From the NCBI RefSeq assembly GCF_009914755.1, contig NC_060929.1: a stretch of DNA of 64,000 nt. One strand, given 5' to 3'. The DNA is from the human T2T-CHM13v2.0 reference genome, Homo sapiens. Positions 18,279 to 29,446 of the stretch are shown here, one piece after another. Numbering within the stretch: position 1 is the stretch's first letter; each line of letters starts with the position of its first letter. The translations under genes and the position numbers were made by a program. The notes under the pieces are model-generated. The model saw nothing but the letters and a program-made list of their open reading frames with translations. It had not been told where the DNA came from and did no database searches.

Positions 18279-21200
18279 AAGGGTATCAGTGATGGAAGAT
18301 CAAATGAATGAAATGAAGTGAGAAGAGAAATTTAGAGAAAAAAAGGATAAAAAGAAACAAAGCCTCCAAGAAATATGGGACTATGTGAAAAGACCAAATC
18401 TACGTCTGATTGGTGTAACTGAAAGTGACAGGGAGAATGGAACCAAGTTGGAAAACACTCTGCAGGATATTATACAGGAGAACTTCTCCAATCTAGCAAG
18501 GCAGGCCAACATTCAGATTCAGGAAATACAGAGAACGCCACAAAGATACTCCTCGAGAAGAGCAACTCCAAGACACATAATTGTCAGATTCACCAAAGTT
18601 GAAATGAAGGAAAAAATGTTAAGGGCAGCCAGAGAGAAAGGTCGGGTTACCCACGAAGGGAAGCCCATCAGACTAACAGCAGATCTCTTGGCAGAAACTC
18701 TACAAGCCAGAAGATAATGGGGGCCAATATTCAACATTCTTAAAGAAAAGAATTTTCAACCCAGAATTTCATATCCAGCCAAACTAAGCTTCATAAGTGA
18801 AGGAGAAATAAAATACTTTACAGACAAGCAAATGCTGAGAGATTTTGTCACCACCAGGCCTGTCTTAAAAGAGCTCCTGAAGGAAGCACTAAACATGGAA
18901 AGGAACAACCGATACCAGCCACTGCAAAAACATGCCAAATTGTAAAGACCATCGAGGCTAGGAAGAAACTGCATCAACTAACAAGCAAAATAACCAGCTA
19001 ACATCATAATGACAGGATCAAATTCACACATAACAATATTAACCTTAAATGTAAATGGGCTAAATGCTCCAATTAAAAGACACAGACTGGCAAATTGGAT
19101 AAAGAGTCAAGACCCATCAGTGTGCTGTATTCAGGAAACCCATCTCATGCACGGAGACACACATAGGCTCAAAATAAAGGGATAGAGGAAGATCTACCAA
19201 GCAAATGGAAAACAAAAAAAGGCAGGGGTTGCAATCCTACTCTCTGATAAAACAGACTTTAAACCAACAAAGATCAAAAGAGACAAAGAAGGCCATTACA
19301 TCATGGTAAAGGGATCAATTCACAAGAAGAGCTAACTATCCTAAATATATATGCACCCAATACAGGAGCACCCAGATGAATAAAGCAAGTCCTTAGAGAC
19401 CTAGAAAGAGACTTAGACTCCCACACAATAATAATGGGAGACTTTAACACCCTACTGTCAACATTAGACAGATCAACAAGACAAAGTTAACAAGGATATC
19501 CAGGAATTGAACTTAGCTCTGCACCAAGCAGACCTAATAGACATCTACAGAACTCTCCACCCCAAATCAACAGAATATACATTCTTCTCAGCATCACACC
19601 ACACTTATTTCAATATTGACCACATAGTTGGAAGTAAAGCACTCCTCAGCAAATGTAAAAGAACAGAAATTATAACAAAATGTCTCTCAGACCACAGTGC
19701 AATCAAACTAGAACTCAGGATTAAGAAACTCACTCAAAACCGTTCAACTACATGGAAACTGAACAACCTGCTCCTGAATGACTACTGGGTACATAACAAA
19801 GTGAAGGCAGAAATAAAGATGTTCTTTGAAACCAACAAGAACAAAGACACAACATACCAGAATCTCTAGGACACATTCAAAGCAGTGTGTAGAGGGAAAT
19901 TTATAGCACTAAATGCCCACAAGAGAAAGCAGGAAAGATCTAAAATTGACACCCTAACATCACAATTAAAAGAACTAGAAAAGCAAGAGCAAACACATTC
20001 GAAAGCCAGCAGAAGGCAAGAAATAACTAAGATCAGAGCAGAACTGAAGGAAATAGAGACACAAAAAACCCTTCAAAAAATTAATGAATCCCGGAACCGG
20101 TTTTTTGAAAAGATCAACAAAATTGATAGAACGATAGTAAGACTAATAAAGAAGAAAAGAGAGAAGAATCAAATAGACACAATAAAAAATGATAAAGGGG
20201 ATATCACCACCAATCCCACAGAAATACAAACTACCATCAGAGAATACTAAAAACACCTCTATGCAAATAAACTAGAAAATCTAGAAGAAATGGATAAGTT
20301 CCTTGACACATACACCCTCCCAAGACTAAACCAGGAAGAAGCTGAATCTCTGAATAGACCAATAACAGGATCTGAAATTGACGCAATAATTAATAGCTTA
20401 CCAACCAAAAAAAAATCCAGGACCAGATGGATTCACAGCCGAATTCTACCAGAGGTACAAGGAGAAGCTGGTACCATTCCTTCTGAAACTACTCCAATCA
20501 ACAGAAAAAGAGGGAATCCTCCTTAACTCATGAGGCCAGCATCATCCTGATACCAAAGCCGGGCAGAGACATAACCAAAAAAGAGAATTTTAGACCAATA
20601 ACCCTGATGAACATTGATGCAGAAATCCTCAGTAAAATACTGGCAAACCGAATCCAGCAGCACATCAAAAAGCTTATCCACCATGATCAAGTGGGCTTCA
20701 TCACTGGGATGCAAGGCTGGTTCAATATACGCAAATCAATAAACATAATTCAGCATATAAACAGAACCAAAGACAAAAACCATATGATTATCTCAACAGA
20801 TGCAGAAAAGGCCTTTGACAAAATTCAACAACTCTTCATGCTAAAAACTCTCAATAAATTAGGTATGGATGGGACATATCTCAAACTAATAAGAGCTATC
20901 TGTGACAAACCCACAGCCAATATCATACTGAATGGGCAAAAACTGGAAGCATTCCCTTTGAAAACTGGCACAAGACAGGGATGCCCTCTCTCACCACTCC
21001 TATTCAACATAGTGTTGGAAGTTCTGGCCAGGGCAATTAGGCAGGGGAAGGAAATAAAGGGTATTCAATTAGGAAAAGAGGAAGTCAAATTGTCCCTGTT
21101 TGCAGATGACATGATTGTATATCTAGAAAACCCCATTGTCTCAGCCCAAAACCTCCTTAAGCTGATAGGCAACTTCAGCAAAGTCTCAGGATACAAAATC

Positions 21201-23054
21201 AATGTGCAAAAATCACAAGCATTCTTTTACACCAATAACAGACAGAGAGCCAAATCATGAGTGAACTCCCATTCACAATTGCTTCAAAGAGAATAAAATA
21301 CCTAGGAATCCAACTTACAAGGGATGGGAAGGACCTCTTCAAGGAGAACTACAAACCACTGCTCAATGAAATAAAAGAGGATACAAACAAATGGAAGAAC
21401 ATTCCATGCTCATGGGTAGGAAGAATCAATATCGTGAAAATGGCCATACTGCCCAAGGTAATTTATAGATTCAATGCCATCCCCATCAAGCTACCAATGA
21501 CTTTCTTCACAGAATTGGAAAAAACTACTTTCACGTTCATATGGAACCAAAAAACAGCCCGCATTGCCAAGTCAGTCCTAAGCCAAAAGAACCAAGCTGG
21601 AGGTATCAGGCTACCTGACTTCAAATTATACTACAAGGCTACAGTAACCAAAACAGCATGATACTGGTACCAAAACAGCATGATACTGGTACCAAAAACA
21701 GAGATATAGACCAATGGAATAGAACAGAGCCCTCAGAAATAACGCCGCATATCTACAACCATCTGATCTTTGACAAACCTGACAAAAACAAGAAATGGGG
21801 AAAGGATTCCCTATTTAATAAATGGTGCTGGGAAAACTGGCTAGTCATATGCAGAAAGCTGAAACTGGATCCCTTCCTTACACCTTCTACAAAAATTAAT
21901 TCAAGATGGGTTAAACACTTAAATGTTAGACCTAAAACCATAAAAACCCTAGAAGAAAACCTAGGCAATACCATTCAGGACATAGGCATGAGCAAGGACT
22001 TCATGTCTAAAACACCAAAAGCAATGGCTACAAAAGCCAAAATTGACAAATGGGATCTAATTAAACTAAAGAGCTTCTGCAAAGCAAAAGAAACTACCAT
22101 CAGAGTGAACAGGCAACCTACAGAATGGGAGAAAATTTTTGTAATCTACTCATCTGACAAAGGGCTAATATCCAGAATCTACAATGAACTCCAACAAATT
22201 TACAAGAAAAAAATAAACAACCCTATCAACAAGTGGGTAAAGGATATGAACAGACACTTCTCAAAAGAAGATATTTATGCAGCCAAAAGACACATGAGAA
22301 AATGCGCATCATCACTGGCCATCAGAGAAATGCAAATCAAAACCACAATGATATACCATCTCACACCAGTTAGAATGGCGATCATTAAAAAGTCAGGAAA
22401 CAACAGATGCTGGAGAGGATGTGGAGAAACAGGAACACTTTTACACTGTTGGTGGGACTTCAACCATTGTGGAAGTCAGTGTGGCGATTCCTCAGGGATC
22501 TAGAACTAGAAATACCATTTGACCCAGCAATCCCATTACTGGGTATATACCCAAAGGATTATAAATCATGCTGCTATAAAGACACATGCACACGTGTGTT
22601 TATTGCGGCACTGTTCACAATAGCAAAGACTTGGAACCAACCCAAATGTCCAACAATGATAGACTGGATTAAGAAAATGTGGCACATATACACCATGGAA
22701 TACTATGCAGCCATAAAACATGATGAGTTCATGTCCTTTGTAGGGACATGGATGAAGCTGGAAACCATCATTCTCAGCAAACTATGGCAAGGACAAAAAA
22801 CCAAACACCGCATGTTCTCACTCATAGGTGGGAACTGAACAATGAGAACACATGGACCCAGGAAGGAGAACATCACACACCAGGGCCTGTTGTGGGGTGG
22901 GGGGAGTGGGGAGGGATAGCATTTGGAGATATAACTAATGTTAAAATGATGAGTTACTGGGTGCAGCACACCAACATGGCACATGTACACATATGTAACT
23001 AACCTGCACATTGTGCACATGTACCCTAAAACTTAAAGTATAACAACAAAAAAA
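18279..23054 (+). mobile_element. 5'-truncated L1PA (PA4-like), ~4.8 kb, ORFs disrupted (L1-b)
   Basis: Partial ORF1, fragmented ORF2 (EN, RT FADD, C-rich domain), 3'UTR and short A tail; multiple stops and frameshifts. Confidence 0.95.
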
Positions 23055-29400: not shown

Positions 29401-29446
29401 GTGCACATGTACCCTAAAACTTAAAGTATAATTAAAAAAAAAAAAA
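23411..29446 (+). mobile_element. Full-length L1PA2/PA3-type element, ~6.0 kb, non-autonomous (L1-c)
   Basis: Starts GGAGGAGGAGCCAAGATGGC with a CpG-rich 5'UTR. ORF1 24322-25340 has an in-frame TGA at 24469. ORF2 25404-29227 has a TGA at 25773 and a frameshift near 27640. Poly(A) tail; TSD AAGATTACAGTA at 23399-23410 and 29447-29458. Confidence 0.97.

What the first reader, a model, noticed from the sequence alone, without database searches (positions are those of the whole stretch)
18279..29446. Two adjacent L1s of different subfamilies share about a dozen rare mutations, including the same ORF2 stop, in a fine mosaic
Seen: L1-b and L1-c lie 357 bp apart in the same orientation and share variants absent from L1-d and from the L1PA consensus as I recall it. 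These are GGTGTAaCT (18418/24813), ATTATaCAGG (18474/24869), CCTAcTCTCT (19240/25635), TTACATcATGG (19302/25697), CCCAGATgaATAAA (TTC>TGA stop, 19377/25773), GACAtAACC (20572/26974), TCATCaCTGGG (20703/27105), CTCAAcAGATG (20797/27199), GGTATgGATGG (20867/27269), GGGATGgGAAGG (21327/27729), ATGGCtACAA (22029/28408) and GAACTCcAACAA (22192/28571). Most are non-CpG transversions. Subfamily-diagnostic differences persist between these sites, sometimes only ~15 nt away (GTCCTtAGaGAC vs GTCCTgAGtGAC after the shared stop; different ORF1 ends and 3'UTRs). L1-c also has its own TSD, so this is not a simple tandem duplication. Inference: repeated very-short-tract non-allelic gene conversion between neighbours, which may have copied an inactivating stop between a truncated older copy and a younger full-length one. 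Neighbour homogenisation of repeats is a known idea; this density and the shared stop are what stand out.
Basis: partly seen in the sequence, partly recalled or inferred. Interest (0 to 1): 0.8.

Follow-up and report, generated by a model that had tools for sequence, protein, structure and literature searches.

The report
Neighbouring L1 copies patched by gene conversion
Two LINE-1 copies of different ages that sit 355 bp apart in a WDR41 intron have exchanged about a dozen short stretches of sequence, including a stop codon; this is an ordinary example of repeat neighbours homogenising each other, with one unexplained excess of transversions.

Summary
All 12 quoted motifs occur exactly twice in the window, once in L1-b and once in L1-c. 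L1-d lacks the variant bases, and so do 25-30 of the 26-30 genomic relatives covered at each site.

The two copies are independent insertions. L1-c carries the young-type base at 34 of 37 subfamily-diagnostic sites; L1-b carries the older-type base at 28 of 37. L1-c also has its own 12-bp target-site duplication.

The sharing is far above chance. They share 11 rare alleles, against a mean of 1.08 and a maximum of 6 in 464 control pairs. Three adjacent-allele haplotypes are unique to this pair in the whole genome. Identical runs of 80 bp or more are also in excess: 8, against a maximum of 5 in 84 controls.

Non-allelic gene conversion is the best reading, probably mostly from L1-c into L1-b. 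The tracts can be 50-215 bp long, so "very short" tracts are not needed. A randomly chosen neighbour pair on chr1 shares 19 rare alleles, so the density is not exceptional.

One feature is unexplained: the shared alleles are 11 transversions to 3 transitions, against 44:97 for private changes. I could not check other assemblies or ape orthologues.

The parts
18279..23055 (+). L1-b: 5'-truncated older-type L1PA copy with a poly(A) end. ORF2 is in many pieces. Likely recipient of most transfers.
   Evidence: Self-BLAST of the window. Older-type base at 28 of 37 diagnostic sites. ORF fragments. I found no clear target-site duplication.
23056..23410 (.). Unique spacer between the two copies. Its last 12 bp (23399-23410) are the upstream copy of L1-c's target-site duplication.
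   Evidence: No other match in the window. Sequence read.
23411..29448 (+). L1-c: full-length younger-type L1PA copy with poly(A). The downstream duplication AAGATTACAGTA lies at 29449-29460. Likely donor of most transfers.
   Evidence: ends and duplication. Young-type base at 34 of 37 diagnostic sites. 95-96% identical to its best genomic relatives. ORF2 is interrupted by the TGA and by a frame change near 27563-27662, and ORF1 is in pieces.
25773..25775 (+). Shared TGA stop in ORF2 of L1-c. The same codon is at 19377-19379 in L1-b. The usual codon is TTC in L1-d and in 29 of 30 panel copies.
   Evidence: A 25-mer holding it has 3 matches in the genome: b, c and one unrelated copy on chr2 (L001) that shares none of the other alleles.
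24806..24881 (+). Tract 1 in L1-c (L1-b 18411-18486): shared 24813-A and 24869-A, with three c-private transitions between them.
   Evidence: The two-allele haplotype has 2 of 2 genome matches, b and c.
25609..25789 (+). Tract 2 in L1-c (L1-b 19214-19393): shared 25635-C, 25697-C and the TGA. Only one substitution and one 1-bp deletion separate the copies here. It is bounded by discordant subfamily sites at 25574 and 25790.
   Evidence: The 25635+25697 haplotype has 2 of 2 genome matches, b and c.
26934..26978 (+). Tract 3 in L1-c (L1-b 20532-20576): shared 26974-T, 4 bp from diagnostic site 26978 where L1-b carries the young-type base.
   Evidence: The 26974+27105 haplotype has 2 of 2 genome matches, b and c.
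27043..27145 (+). Tract 4 in L1-c (L1-b 20641-20743): a 103-bp identical run with shared 27105-A and a young-type base in both copies at 27128.
   Evidence: 27105-A with 27199-C is also found in 5 other copies. Of the four that could be genotyped, none shares any of the other 12 listed positions (one has 29224-C).
27186..27277 (+). Tract 5 in L1-c (L1-b 20784-20875): shared 27199-C and 27269-G.
   Evidence: This pair also occurs in 2 other copies (L037, L038) that share nothing else.
27644..27830 (+). Tract 6 in L1-c (L1-b 21242-21428): a 187-bp identical run, the longest, with shared 27729-G.
   Evidence: 27729 was not searched genome-wide; it had 0 of 28 panel carriers.
28371..28460 (+). Tract 7 in L1-c (L1-b 21992-22081): a 90-bp identical run with shared 28408-T.
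   Evidence: 28408-T with 28571-C is also in L039, a young-type relative of L1-c, which points to L1-c as the source.
28525..28592 (+). Tract 8 in L1-c (L1-b 22146-22213): shared 28571-C. Three discordant subfamily sites (28502, 28519, 28524) separate it from tract 7.
24883..25047 (+). A 165-bp run identical between the copies with no rare allele (L1-b 18488-18652). Similar runs lie at 25113-25239 and at 27305-27447; in the latter L1-b has the young-type base at 27440. Candidate further tracts.
   Evidence: The excess of such runs over controls is shown.

Best explanation
L1-b and L1-c are independent retrotransposition events of two successive L1PA subfamilies. They landed 355 bp apart in the same orientation. 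After the younger, full-length L1-c arrived, non-allelic (interlocus) gene conversion copied several short stretches of tens to about 200 bp between them. These cover roughly 15-25% of the 4.8-kb overlap.

Where direction can be read, L1-c was the donor and L1-b the recipient. Mutations private to the donor, among them the ORF2 TGA, therefore now sit in both copies, while subfamily differences outside the tracts remain.

Shown: the sharing, its excess over controls, the genome-wide uniqueness of three haplotypes, and the excess of identical runs. Inferred: the mechanism, the direction, and the number of events.
For: (1) Independent origin.
- L1-c is young-type at 34 of 37 diagnostic sites and L1-b older-type at 28 of 37.
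- L1-c has its own duplication.
- The b-c substitution distance of 4.9% is no lower than L1-b's distance to unrelated copies (4.9-5.6%), and is higher than L1-c's distance to its own group (3.3-4.3%).

(2) Excess sharing. With at most 1 other carrier, b-c share 10 transversions and 1 transition. The 464 control pairs have a mean of 1.08 and a maximum of 6. Against 135 older x younger control pairs, exclusive transversions number 9 versus a mean of 0.16 and a maximum of 2.

(3) Not a dispersed lineage.
- Haplotypes 24813+24869, 25635+25697 and 26974+27105 each match only b and c in 3.1 Gb.
- The TGA 25-mer matches b, c and one unrelated copy.
- Of the 8 other copies that carry one of the remaining allele pairs, 7 could be genotyped. 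None has any other of the 13 positions; one (L032) also has 29224-C.

(4) Tract signature independent of the rare alleles. Identical runs in b-c against 84 older x younger controls:
- 80 bp or more: 8 versus mean 2.35, maximum 5.
- 100 bp or more: 5 versus mean 0.70, maximum 3.
- 140 bp or more: 3 versus mean 0.13, maximum 1.
- 1,000 of 4,130 bp lie in such runs, against 86-543 bp in 20 pairs of L1-b or L1-c with other copies.

(5) Direction.
- L1-b has 7 young-type bases, the most of any older-type copy (others 0-5). Two of them are 4 and 23 bp from shared alleles. L1-c has only 1 older-type base.
- L039, a young-type relative of L1-c, carries 28408-T and 28571-C.
- Within +-25 bp of shared alleles, b-private substitutions are depleted (3 versus 9.8 expected) and discordant subfamily sites are depleted (2 versus 5.3). 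c-private ones are not (6 versus 7.9).

(6) Positive control. A same-orientation pair 14 kb apart on chr1 (L046/L047, 93.9% identical) shares 19 rare alleles. 14 of them lie in about 775 bp that holds only about 6 differences.

(7) Scale. 13 of L1-c's 76 rare alleles (17%) are shared, and 7 of 37 diagnostic sites (19%) are young-type in both copies. The abstract of 10.1101/135152 gives 2.5e-7 conversions per bp per generation and a 250-bp mean tract for human duplicates. On my assumption of about 6e5 generations, that predicts about 14% converted.
Against: (1) Spectrum. The shared alleles are 11 transversions to 3 transitions, while b- and c-private substitutions are 44:97 (Fisher p = 7.5e-4). 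Counting clustered alleles as single events gives 7 of 9 (p = 0.0055). Plain copying of random private mutations does not predict this.

(2) Local divergence. Divergence around shared alleles is only slightly lower for b-c than for L1-b against other young copies (inside/outside ratio 0.44 versus mean 0.54, minimum 0.42, at +-25 bp). Tracts are therefore short or old, and this test alone would not have shown conversion.

(3) Tract 1 holds three c-private and, at its edge, one b-private transition within 78 bp. That is dense for mutations arising after the event.

(4) Three of L1-b's seven young-type bases (26450, 26768, 27128) are also in L035, an older-type copy elsewhere, so they may be inherited rather than converted.

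(5) There is no GC bias: 6 weak-to-strong, 5 strong-to-weak.

(6) In the first control, one pair (L1-d with L013) tied b-c at 8 exclusive alleles. This shows that subfamily structure in a small panel can mimic sharing.

(7) The panel is the 30 loci from a search that scored only 40 of 32,957 candidates, chosen by the tool for likeness to L1-b.

(8) Only one assembly was available, so an assembly error cannot be excluded directly.
Confidence: 0.68

Rival explanations
1. One or a few recombination events formed a long heteroduplex between the two 94%-identical copies. The mismatches were then handled one by one. Well-recognised transition mispairs (G.T, A.C) were restored or caused rejection. 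Poorly recognised transversion mispairs (A.G, C.T, C.C, T.T) escaped and were fixed at the next replication. This is still gene conversion, but patchy and dependent on mismatch type.
For: - The excess sharing is almost wholly transversions: 9 exclusive versus 0.16 expected. Transitions are near background: 8 versus 4.2 summed over frequency classes.
- 9 of the 11 shared transversions are C:G<->A:T changes, which give A.G or C.T mispairs.
- The eight c-private differences within about 27 bp of shared alleles are all transitions (24805, 24828, 24842, 24843, 25679, 26979, 27250, 27282).
- Between shared 28408 and 28571, the three unconverted diagnostic sites and b-private 28521 are transitions; b-private 28461, also in this span, is a transversion.
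- Taking every site where L1-c differs from the older-type or majority state, L1-b carries L1-c's base at 13 of 41 transversions and 8 of 72 transitions (my tally).
- The ranking of mispair repair efficiencies is recalled from older E. coli and monkey-cell work, not checked here.
Against: - Transversion-type diagnostic sites are not preferentially converted (2 of 10, against 5 of 27 transitions). Two of them, 25790 and 25793, stay discordant 15-18 bp from the stop.
- Mammalian mismatch-repair excision tracts are long (recalled), so independent handling of mismatches about 20 bp apart is not expected.
- The other neighbour pair shows no such bias (15 transitions: 4 transversions).
Confidence: 0.15
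2. The shared alleles mark an unrecognised minor L1 lineage. Both copies inherited them from related source elements, with no DNA-level exchange at this locus.
For: - Such lineages exist. L040/L041 (chr5:86.12 Mb, 17.8 kb apart, inverted) share 34 rare alleles (23 transversions: 11 transitions). A linked pair of those alleles is found in 9 dispersed copies.
- 27105-A with 27199-C occurs in both older-type (L033, L035) and younger-type (L032, L034) copies.
- 28408-T with 28571-C is shared with L039.
Against: - Three haplotypes are confined to b and c genome-wide.
- No copy fetched for carrying one allele pair has any further one of the 13 positions.
- The extra pairs are the number expected by chance, given that 27199-C and 28571-C sit at 7-8% in the panel and given the counts.
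- A lineage spanning two subfamilies would have to keep a premature ORF2 stop while still being copied.
- L1-b and L1-c differ at 28 or more diagnostic sites.
Confidence: 0.04
3. Assembly or polishing artefact: bases of one copy were written into the other when the CHM13 sequence was built.
For: - Only one assembly could be examined.
- Shared alleles sit in locally identical stretches.
- The odd transversion-rich spectrum is not what germline decay gives.
Against: - The copies differ at about 5-6% of positions and lie 6.4 kb apart with unique spacer and flanks. From general knowledge, long accurate reads should place them unambiguously.
- A context-driven systematic error would recur in the thousands of other L1 copies with the same 21-mers, but the alleles are at about 0.5-3% genome-wide.
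- Cross-copy polishing would copy transitions as readily as transversions.
- L1-b's loss of its own private mutations around the shared alleles is expected from real conversion tracts.
Confidence: 0.05
4. Transfer at the moment L1-c inserted. The single-stranded L1-c cDNA, made 355 bp downstream of L1-b, transiently paired with L1-b and left patches of its sequence there. The shared alleles would then be those L1-c carried at birth.
For: - The direction is L1-c to L1-b where readable.
- Alleles inherited within a retrotransposing lineage can be transversion-rich, as in L040/L041.
- c-private differences near shared alleles are at normal density, as expected if nearly all arose after the event.
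Against: - If tracts cover about 20% of the overlap, 13 transferred alleles imply about 65 alleles present at birth. That is nearly all of L1-c's 76 rare alleles, yet the unshared ones have an ordinary decay spectrum (42 transitions: 20 transversions).
- Tract 2 has only 2 differences in about 210 bp, which suggests an event well after insertion.
- An ORF2 stop in the inserting RNA would have required mobilisation by another element's proteins.
Confidence: 0.05
5. Chance coincidence of independent mutations at the same sites.
For: Control pairs do share about 1 rare allele on average, mostly transitions (446 transitions: 139 transversions over 495 pairs).
Against: Poisson P(>=11 | 1.08) = 2e-8, and P(>=10 transversions | 0.28) = 6e-13. 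The TC>GA change is a two-base event.
Confidence: 0.01

Closest known systems
Homogenisation of neighbouring Alu elements by non-allelic gene conversion (Aleshin & Zhi 2010, Mol Biol Evol 27:2300). I saw only what PMC8230782 says of it and its reference entry; the paper itself is not held.
   Same: That study also scored non-diagnostic (private) mutations shared by neighbours. The effect acts within about 10 kb and falls with distance. The pair here is 6.4 kb start to start, in the same orientation.
   Different: Here the repeats are 4.8-6 kb L1 copies of two subfamilies, about 5% diverged, not 300-bp Alus. This is a single dissected locus, not a genome-wide statistic. I do not know whether that paper looked at L1 or at mutation type.
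Alu type changes by gene conversion in primates (PMC8230782, Genes 2021; passages read).
   Same: Younger elements are mostly the donors and older ones the recipients (40 AluS-to-AluY loci against 12 in the reverse direction). This matches the L1-c to L1-b direction inferred here.
   Different: Those cases are whole or half-element replacements recognised by three or more neighbouring diagnostic changes and polarised with orthologues. Here most diagnostic sites are untouched and no orthologues were available.
Non-allelic gene conversion between human gene duplicates (Harpak et al., bioRxiv 10.1101/135152; abstract read).
   Same: The mean tract of 250 bp and the rate of 2.5e-7 per bp per generation are of the order needed for what is seen here: tracts up to about 215 bp and about 15-25% of the overlap affected.
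   Different: That abstract reports a large GC bias, and none is seen here (6 versus 5). It also says conversion slows as copies diverge, and these copies were about 5% diverged from the start.
Minor L1 sub-lineages (copies sharing source-specific alleles by descent), exemplified here by L040/L041 and 7 other copies.
   Same: Two nearby copies share many rare, transversion-rich alleles.
   Different: In a lineage the haplotype recurs at dispersed loci and the copies agree at subfamily sites. For b-c neither is true.

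Membership tests
Non-allelic (interlocus) gene conversion between dispersed repeats | The two sequences are paralogues at distinct loci with independent origins | tested here: met
   Different subfamily states at 28 or more of 37 diagnostic sites. L1-c has its own 12-bp target-site duplication and a unique 355-bp spacer.
Non-allelic (interlocus) gene conversion between dispersed repeats | The pair shares derived alleles beyond chance, and other family members lack them | tested here: met
   11 shared rare alleles against a mean of 1.08 and a maximum of 6 in 464 control pairs. Three haplotypes are unique to the pair in the genome.
Non-allelic (interlocus) gene conversion between dispersed repeats | Discrete tracts of raised identity set in background divergence | tested here: met
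   8, 5 and 3 identical runs of at least 80, 100 and 140 bp, against control maxima of 5, 3 and 1 in 84 pairs. 1,000 of 4,130 bp lie in such runs, against 86-543 bp in controls. The window test around shared alleles was only weakly distinctive.
Non-allelic (interlocus) gene conversion between dispersed repeats | Non-reciprocal transfer with an identifiable donor and recipient | tested here: inconclusive
   Three indirect lines point to L1-c as donor and L1-b as recipient. However, 3 of L1-b's 7 young-type bases may be inherited, and the tract with the stop cannot be polarised.
Non-allelic (interlocus) gene conversion between dispersed repeats | Orthologues in outgroup species show the pre-conversion state | not testable with these tools
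   Only the CHM13 assembly is searchable here.
Non-allelic (interlocus) gene conversion between dispersed repeats | GC-biased outcome (reported for human non-allelic conversion in the abstract of 10.1101/135152) | tested here: not met
   6 weak-to-strong, 5 strong-to-weak and 2 neutral among 13 positions. The sample is small, and this is a tendency rather than a strict requirement.
Unrecognised L1 subfamily or minor lineage | The allele combination recurs in copies at unrelated loci | tested here: not met
   Three adjacent-allele haplotypes match only b and c. The other three are in 1-5 further copies; the 7 that could be genotyped carry only that pair among the 13 positions.
Tandem or segmental duplication | Flanks are homologous, divergence is uniform, and subfamily states are the same | tested here: not met
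   Homology stops at the L1 ends. L1-c has its own duplication. The copies differ at diagnostic sites.

The most novel reading that the evidence does not exclude
The fine mosaic records mismatch-by-mismatch processing of a homeologous heteroduplex in the primate germline. Between two 5%-diverged neighbours, transversion mispairs (mainly A.G and C.T) were converted, while transition mispairs were restored or triggered rejection. The mutation type of a difference would then decide whether it spreads between repeat copies.
Probability: 0.12. Interest if true: 0.6.

Novelty: new member of a known kind. Interest (0 to 1): 0.3.

Why it matters
This is a clean, dissected example of neighbouring L1 copies of different ages exchanging sequence.

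Such exchange blurs subfamily assignment and divergence-based dating of individual repeats. It can also carry a disabling mutation from one copy to another. For this locus there is no sign of any effect on the host gene WDR41, because both copies are intronic, lie antisense to the gene, and are broken.

The only point of wider interest is the transversion excess. If it proved general for short-tract conversion between diverged repeats, it would reveal how mismatches are handled in mammalian recombination intermediates. On present evidence it may equally be a locus-specific accident or an effect of how the finding was picked.

Tried and rejected
- Rfam scan of 17000-31000: 0 families.
- Third-party donor. 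The old L1 remnants in the window (43692-46519, 5622-5927, 3800-4489) match the shared base at only 3 of 7, 1 of 3 and 0 of 2 covered sites. L1-d matches none of the 13. L1-a shares no exclusive allele with L1-b or L1-c.
- Homopolymer-length artefact. Only 24813 (ACC to AAC) is equivalent in homopolymer-compressed form, by my reading. The others are not, so I dropped the idea.
- L1-b as progeny of L1-c, or DNA duplication: rejected by the diagnostic sites and the distances.
- Window-based local divergence test: the b-c ratio of 0.44 is inside the range for L1-b against other young copies (0.42-0.65), so it is not decisive.
- L044/L045 (chr1:60.09 Mb). Both are 5'-inverted L1s with only 736 bp comparable, sharing 7 rare alleles there. 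Too complex to use as a control.
- L036 was fetched for the 27105+27199 haplotype, but my alignment did not recover those bases, probably because another L1 piece in the locus was aligned. I left it out of later counts.
- PRDM9-type 13-mer: 7 hits in the window against 0.57 expected. One is in L1-c's G-rich 3'UTR tract (29288-29300). I saw no link to the tracts.
- I could not find L1-b's target-site duplication.
- Aleshin & Zhi 2010 is not held.
- Searches for print on L1-L1 neighbour conversion listed Alu, LTR and gene-duplicate work but no paper whose title or abstract start dissects adjacent L1 copies. I read only the listings, so this is not proof of absence.

Full report
**Anatomy**

The window is CHM13 chr5:77,934,001-77,998,000.
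- L1-b (18279-23055) is a 5'-truncated L1 ending in a short poly(A).
- L1-c (23411-29448) is full length. It starts with the usual L1 5' end and ends in poly(A). It is flanked by AAGATTACAGTA at 23399-23410 and 29449-29460.
- The 355 bp between the copies match nothing else in the window.
- L1-a is a third L1 piece, 17594-17983, lying 295 bp upstream of L1-b.
- L1-d is an older copy at 50369-55658.
- L1-c's ORF2 reads through except for the TGA at 25773-25775 and a frame change near 27563-27662. Its ORF1, and all of L1-b, are in several pieces.

**Checking the observation**

All 12 motifs occur exactly twice in the window, at the stated places.

I anchored L1-b, L1-d and 30 genomic L1 copies on L1-c. 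The 30 are the loci returned by a whole-genome search with L1-b, which scored 40 of 32,957 candidates. On this panel the shared base had 0 carriers at 8 of 13 positions, 1 carrier at 3 positions and 2 carriers at 2 positions, with 26-30 copies covered per site.

Listing every site where b equals c and the allele is at 10% or less in the panel returned these 13 positions plus 29224. 29224 is weak because only 10 copies cover it and the base is also in L1-d and L1-a.

**Are the copies really independent?**

Overall they are not unusually alike.
- The b-c substitution distance is 4.9%.
- L1-b is 4.9-5.6% from the other copies of L1-c's group and from its nearest older-type copies.
- L1-c is 3.3-4.3% from a tight young group.

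I compared that young group (9 copies) with 15 older-type copies. This gives 37 diagnostic sites in the overlap. L1-c has the young base at 34 and L1-b the older base at 28. Together with L1-c's own duplication, this excludes tandem duplication and parent-offspring descent.

From the pairwise divergences I infer L1PA3-like and L1PA4-like elements. No curated subfamily reference was available, so these names are not verified.

**Is the sharing more than chance or subfamily structure?**

Among 496 pairs drawn from 29 panel copies plus L1-b, L1-c and L1-d, b-c share 10 rare transversions and 1 rare transition, allowing at most 1 other carrier. The 464 pairs without L1-d have a mean of 1.08 and a maximum of 6, with at most 3 transversions. 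Poisson P = 2e-8.

An earlier count put L1-d with L013 level with b-c at 8 exclusive alleles. That is a warning that an under-sampled subfamily can mimic sharing, so I searched the whole genome.

Single alleles are rare but recurrent:
- At 27105, 176 copies carry a non-C base against 7,196 with C.
- At 25635, 262 copies carry a non-G base.

Combinations are what matter:
- 24813+24869, 25635+25697 and 26974+27105 each match only b and c.
- The TGA 25-mer matches b, c and one older copy on chr2 that shares nothing else.
- Three other pairs have extra carriers: 27105+27199 in 5 copies, 27199+27269 in 2, and 28408+28571 in 1.
- I fetched all 8 extra carriers. The 7 that could be genotyped carry only the pair they were found by among the 13 positions; L032 also has 29224-C. 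L036 could not be genotyped.
- Since 27199-C and 28571-C sit at 7-8% in the panel, those numbers are about what chance gives.

No dispersed lineage carries this haplotype.

**Evidence for tracts**

Independently of the rare alleles, b-c have more long identical runs than any of 84 older x younger control pairs:

| Run length | b-c | Control mean | Control maximum |
|---|---|---|---|
| 80 bp or more | 8 | 2.35 | 5 |
| 100 bp or more | 5 | 0.70 | 3 |
| 140 bp or more | 3 | 0.13 | 1 |

1,000 of 4,130 bp lie in such runs, against 86-543 bp in 20 pairs of L1-b or L1-c with other copies.

The 13 positions group into about 8 intervals that contain no discordant diagnostic site. The clearest is 25575-25789. 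It holds 25635-C, 25697-C and the TGA, and only one substitution and one 1-bp deletion separate the copies there.

Each interval is at most about 100-215 bp. Ordinary short tracts therefore suffice, and the mosaic is fine only because the copies started about 5% apart.

A test of divergence in windows around the shared alleles was not decisive. The b-c ratio was 0.44, within the 0.42-0.65 range seen for L1-b against other young copies.

**Direction**

Three lines point to L1-c as the donor.
- L1-b has 7 young-type bases, where other older-type copies have 0-5. Two lie 4 and 23 bp from shared alleles. L1-c has 1 older-type base.
- L039, a young-type copy on chr8 that shares several other rare alleles with L1-c, carries 28408-T and 28571-C.
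- Within +-25 bp of shared alleles, b-private substitutions are depleted (3 versus 9.8 expected) and so are discordant diagnostic sites (2 versus 5.3). c-private ones are not (6 versus 7.9).

There is a caveat. Three of L1-b's young-type bases are also in L035, an older-type copy elsewhere, and may be inherited.

The tract with the stop holds no diagnostic site and cannot be polarised.

**How ordinary is this?**

From a list of L1 positions on chr1 I took same-orientation pairs less than 20 kb apart.
- L046/L047 (14 kb apart, 93.9% identical) share 19 rare alleles. 14 of them lie within about 775 bp that has only about 6 differences, which is a classic tract. Its run counts of 8, 6 and 3 equal those of b-c.
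- The other pair was too rearranged to use.

The share of L1-c's rare alleles found in L1-b (13 of 76) and the share of diagnostic sites homogenised (7 of 37) agree with each other. They also agree with the published rate for human duplicates, taken from the abstract of 10.1101/135152 and my own rough generation count.

Neighbour homogenisation is documented for Alus within about 10 kb, and younger elements are the usual donors (PMC8230782, passages read).

**What is not explained**

The shared alleles are 11 transversions and 3 transitions, whereas b- and c-private substitutions are 44 and 97 (p = 7.5e-4). Against matched controls the excess is confined to transversions. Treating the two clusters as single events leaves 7 of 9 (p = 0.0055).

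Transition sharing is about what 20% tract coverage predicts. Transversions are 3-4 times too many.

Possible reasons, none tested:
- Clustered multi-base mutations arose in the donor before transfer. TC>GA is a tandem change, and four transversions lie within 141 bp.
- Heteroduplex processing depended on mismatch type.

L046/L047 show no such bias (15:4). A true retrotransposing lineage met by chance (L040/L041 plus 7 dispersed copies) is also transversion-rich (23:11), so the bias might mark alleles that were present at insertion. The numbers do not fit transfer at insertion well, however; see the rival explanations.

**Limits**
- Only one assembly was available, with no orthologues and no reads.
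- The tool chose the panel for likeness to L1-b.
- Sites covered by fewer than 15-20 copies were skipped, which thins the last ~600 bp.
- Exact-match patterns miss carriers with a private change in the anchors.
- 27729 was not searched genome-wide.

**Verdict**

This is an instance of a known process at an unremarkable density, probably running from the younger copy into the older one.

Noticed in passing
window 17581-17994: L1-a is a 390-bp piece of the L1 3' end (17594-17983). It stops about 60 bp short of the usual end, has no poly(A), and is flanked by the 11-bp direct repeat AGTTGTCTCTC (17581-17591 and 17984-17994). This is not the usual product of target-primed insertion. It may be a captured fragment at a repaired break. 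It shares no exclusive allele with L1-b or L1-c.
   Followed up: partly
L040 and L041 (G000:C5:86120900-86128000 and 86140000-86147100): Two full-length young-type L1s lie 17.8 kb apart in inverted orientation, with homology confined to the L1. They are 97.0% identical and share 34 rare alleles (23 transversions : 11 transitions). A linked pair of those alleles occurs in 9 dispersed copies, so they belong to a small retrotransposing lineage. Why its lineage alleles are transversion-rich is unexplained.
   Followed up: partly
L046 and L047 (G000:C1:66062131-66068431 and 66076144-66082444): A same-orientation full-length L1 pair 14 kb apart has a classic conversion tract. 14 shared rare alleles and about 6 differences fall within L1-c-equivalent positions 26014-26788, and a second 181-bp identical run holds 3 more shared alleles.
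   Followed up: partly
L044 and L045 (G000:C1:60084904-60091204 and 60094149-60100449): Two 5'-inverted L1s lie 9 kb apart. Their comparable 736 bp are 98.4% identical with 7 shared rare alleles. I did not resolve whether this is duplication or conversion.
   Followed up: no
L001 (G000:C2:99501000-99510900): An older, unrelated L1 copy carries the same TTC>TGA change in ORF2 but none of the other shared alleles. The two-base change has therefore arisen at least twice. GA is the reverse complement of TC, so it could be a 2-bp inversion.
   Followed up: partly
window 4862, 10778, 17856, 29288, 29861, 36403, 36963: The degenerate recombination-hotspot 13-mer CCNCCNTNNCCNC occurs 7 times against 0.57 expected. 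Several hits read CC(A/G)CC(T/C)TGGCCTC, which is Alu-like by recall. Two lie in the G-rich 3'UTR tract of L1-a and L1-c.
   Followed up: no
panel copies L003-L031, L1-c-equivalent 24670-29000: Among 1,710 singleton substitutions in 31 aligned L1 copies, C>A outnumbers G>T on the sense strand (136 versus 74; per-site ratio 1.55). The transversion fraction is 47%, higher than in L1-b and L1-c (31%). Part of this may be alignment noise near indels.
   Followed up: no
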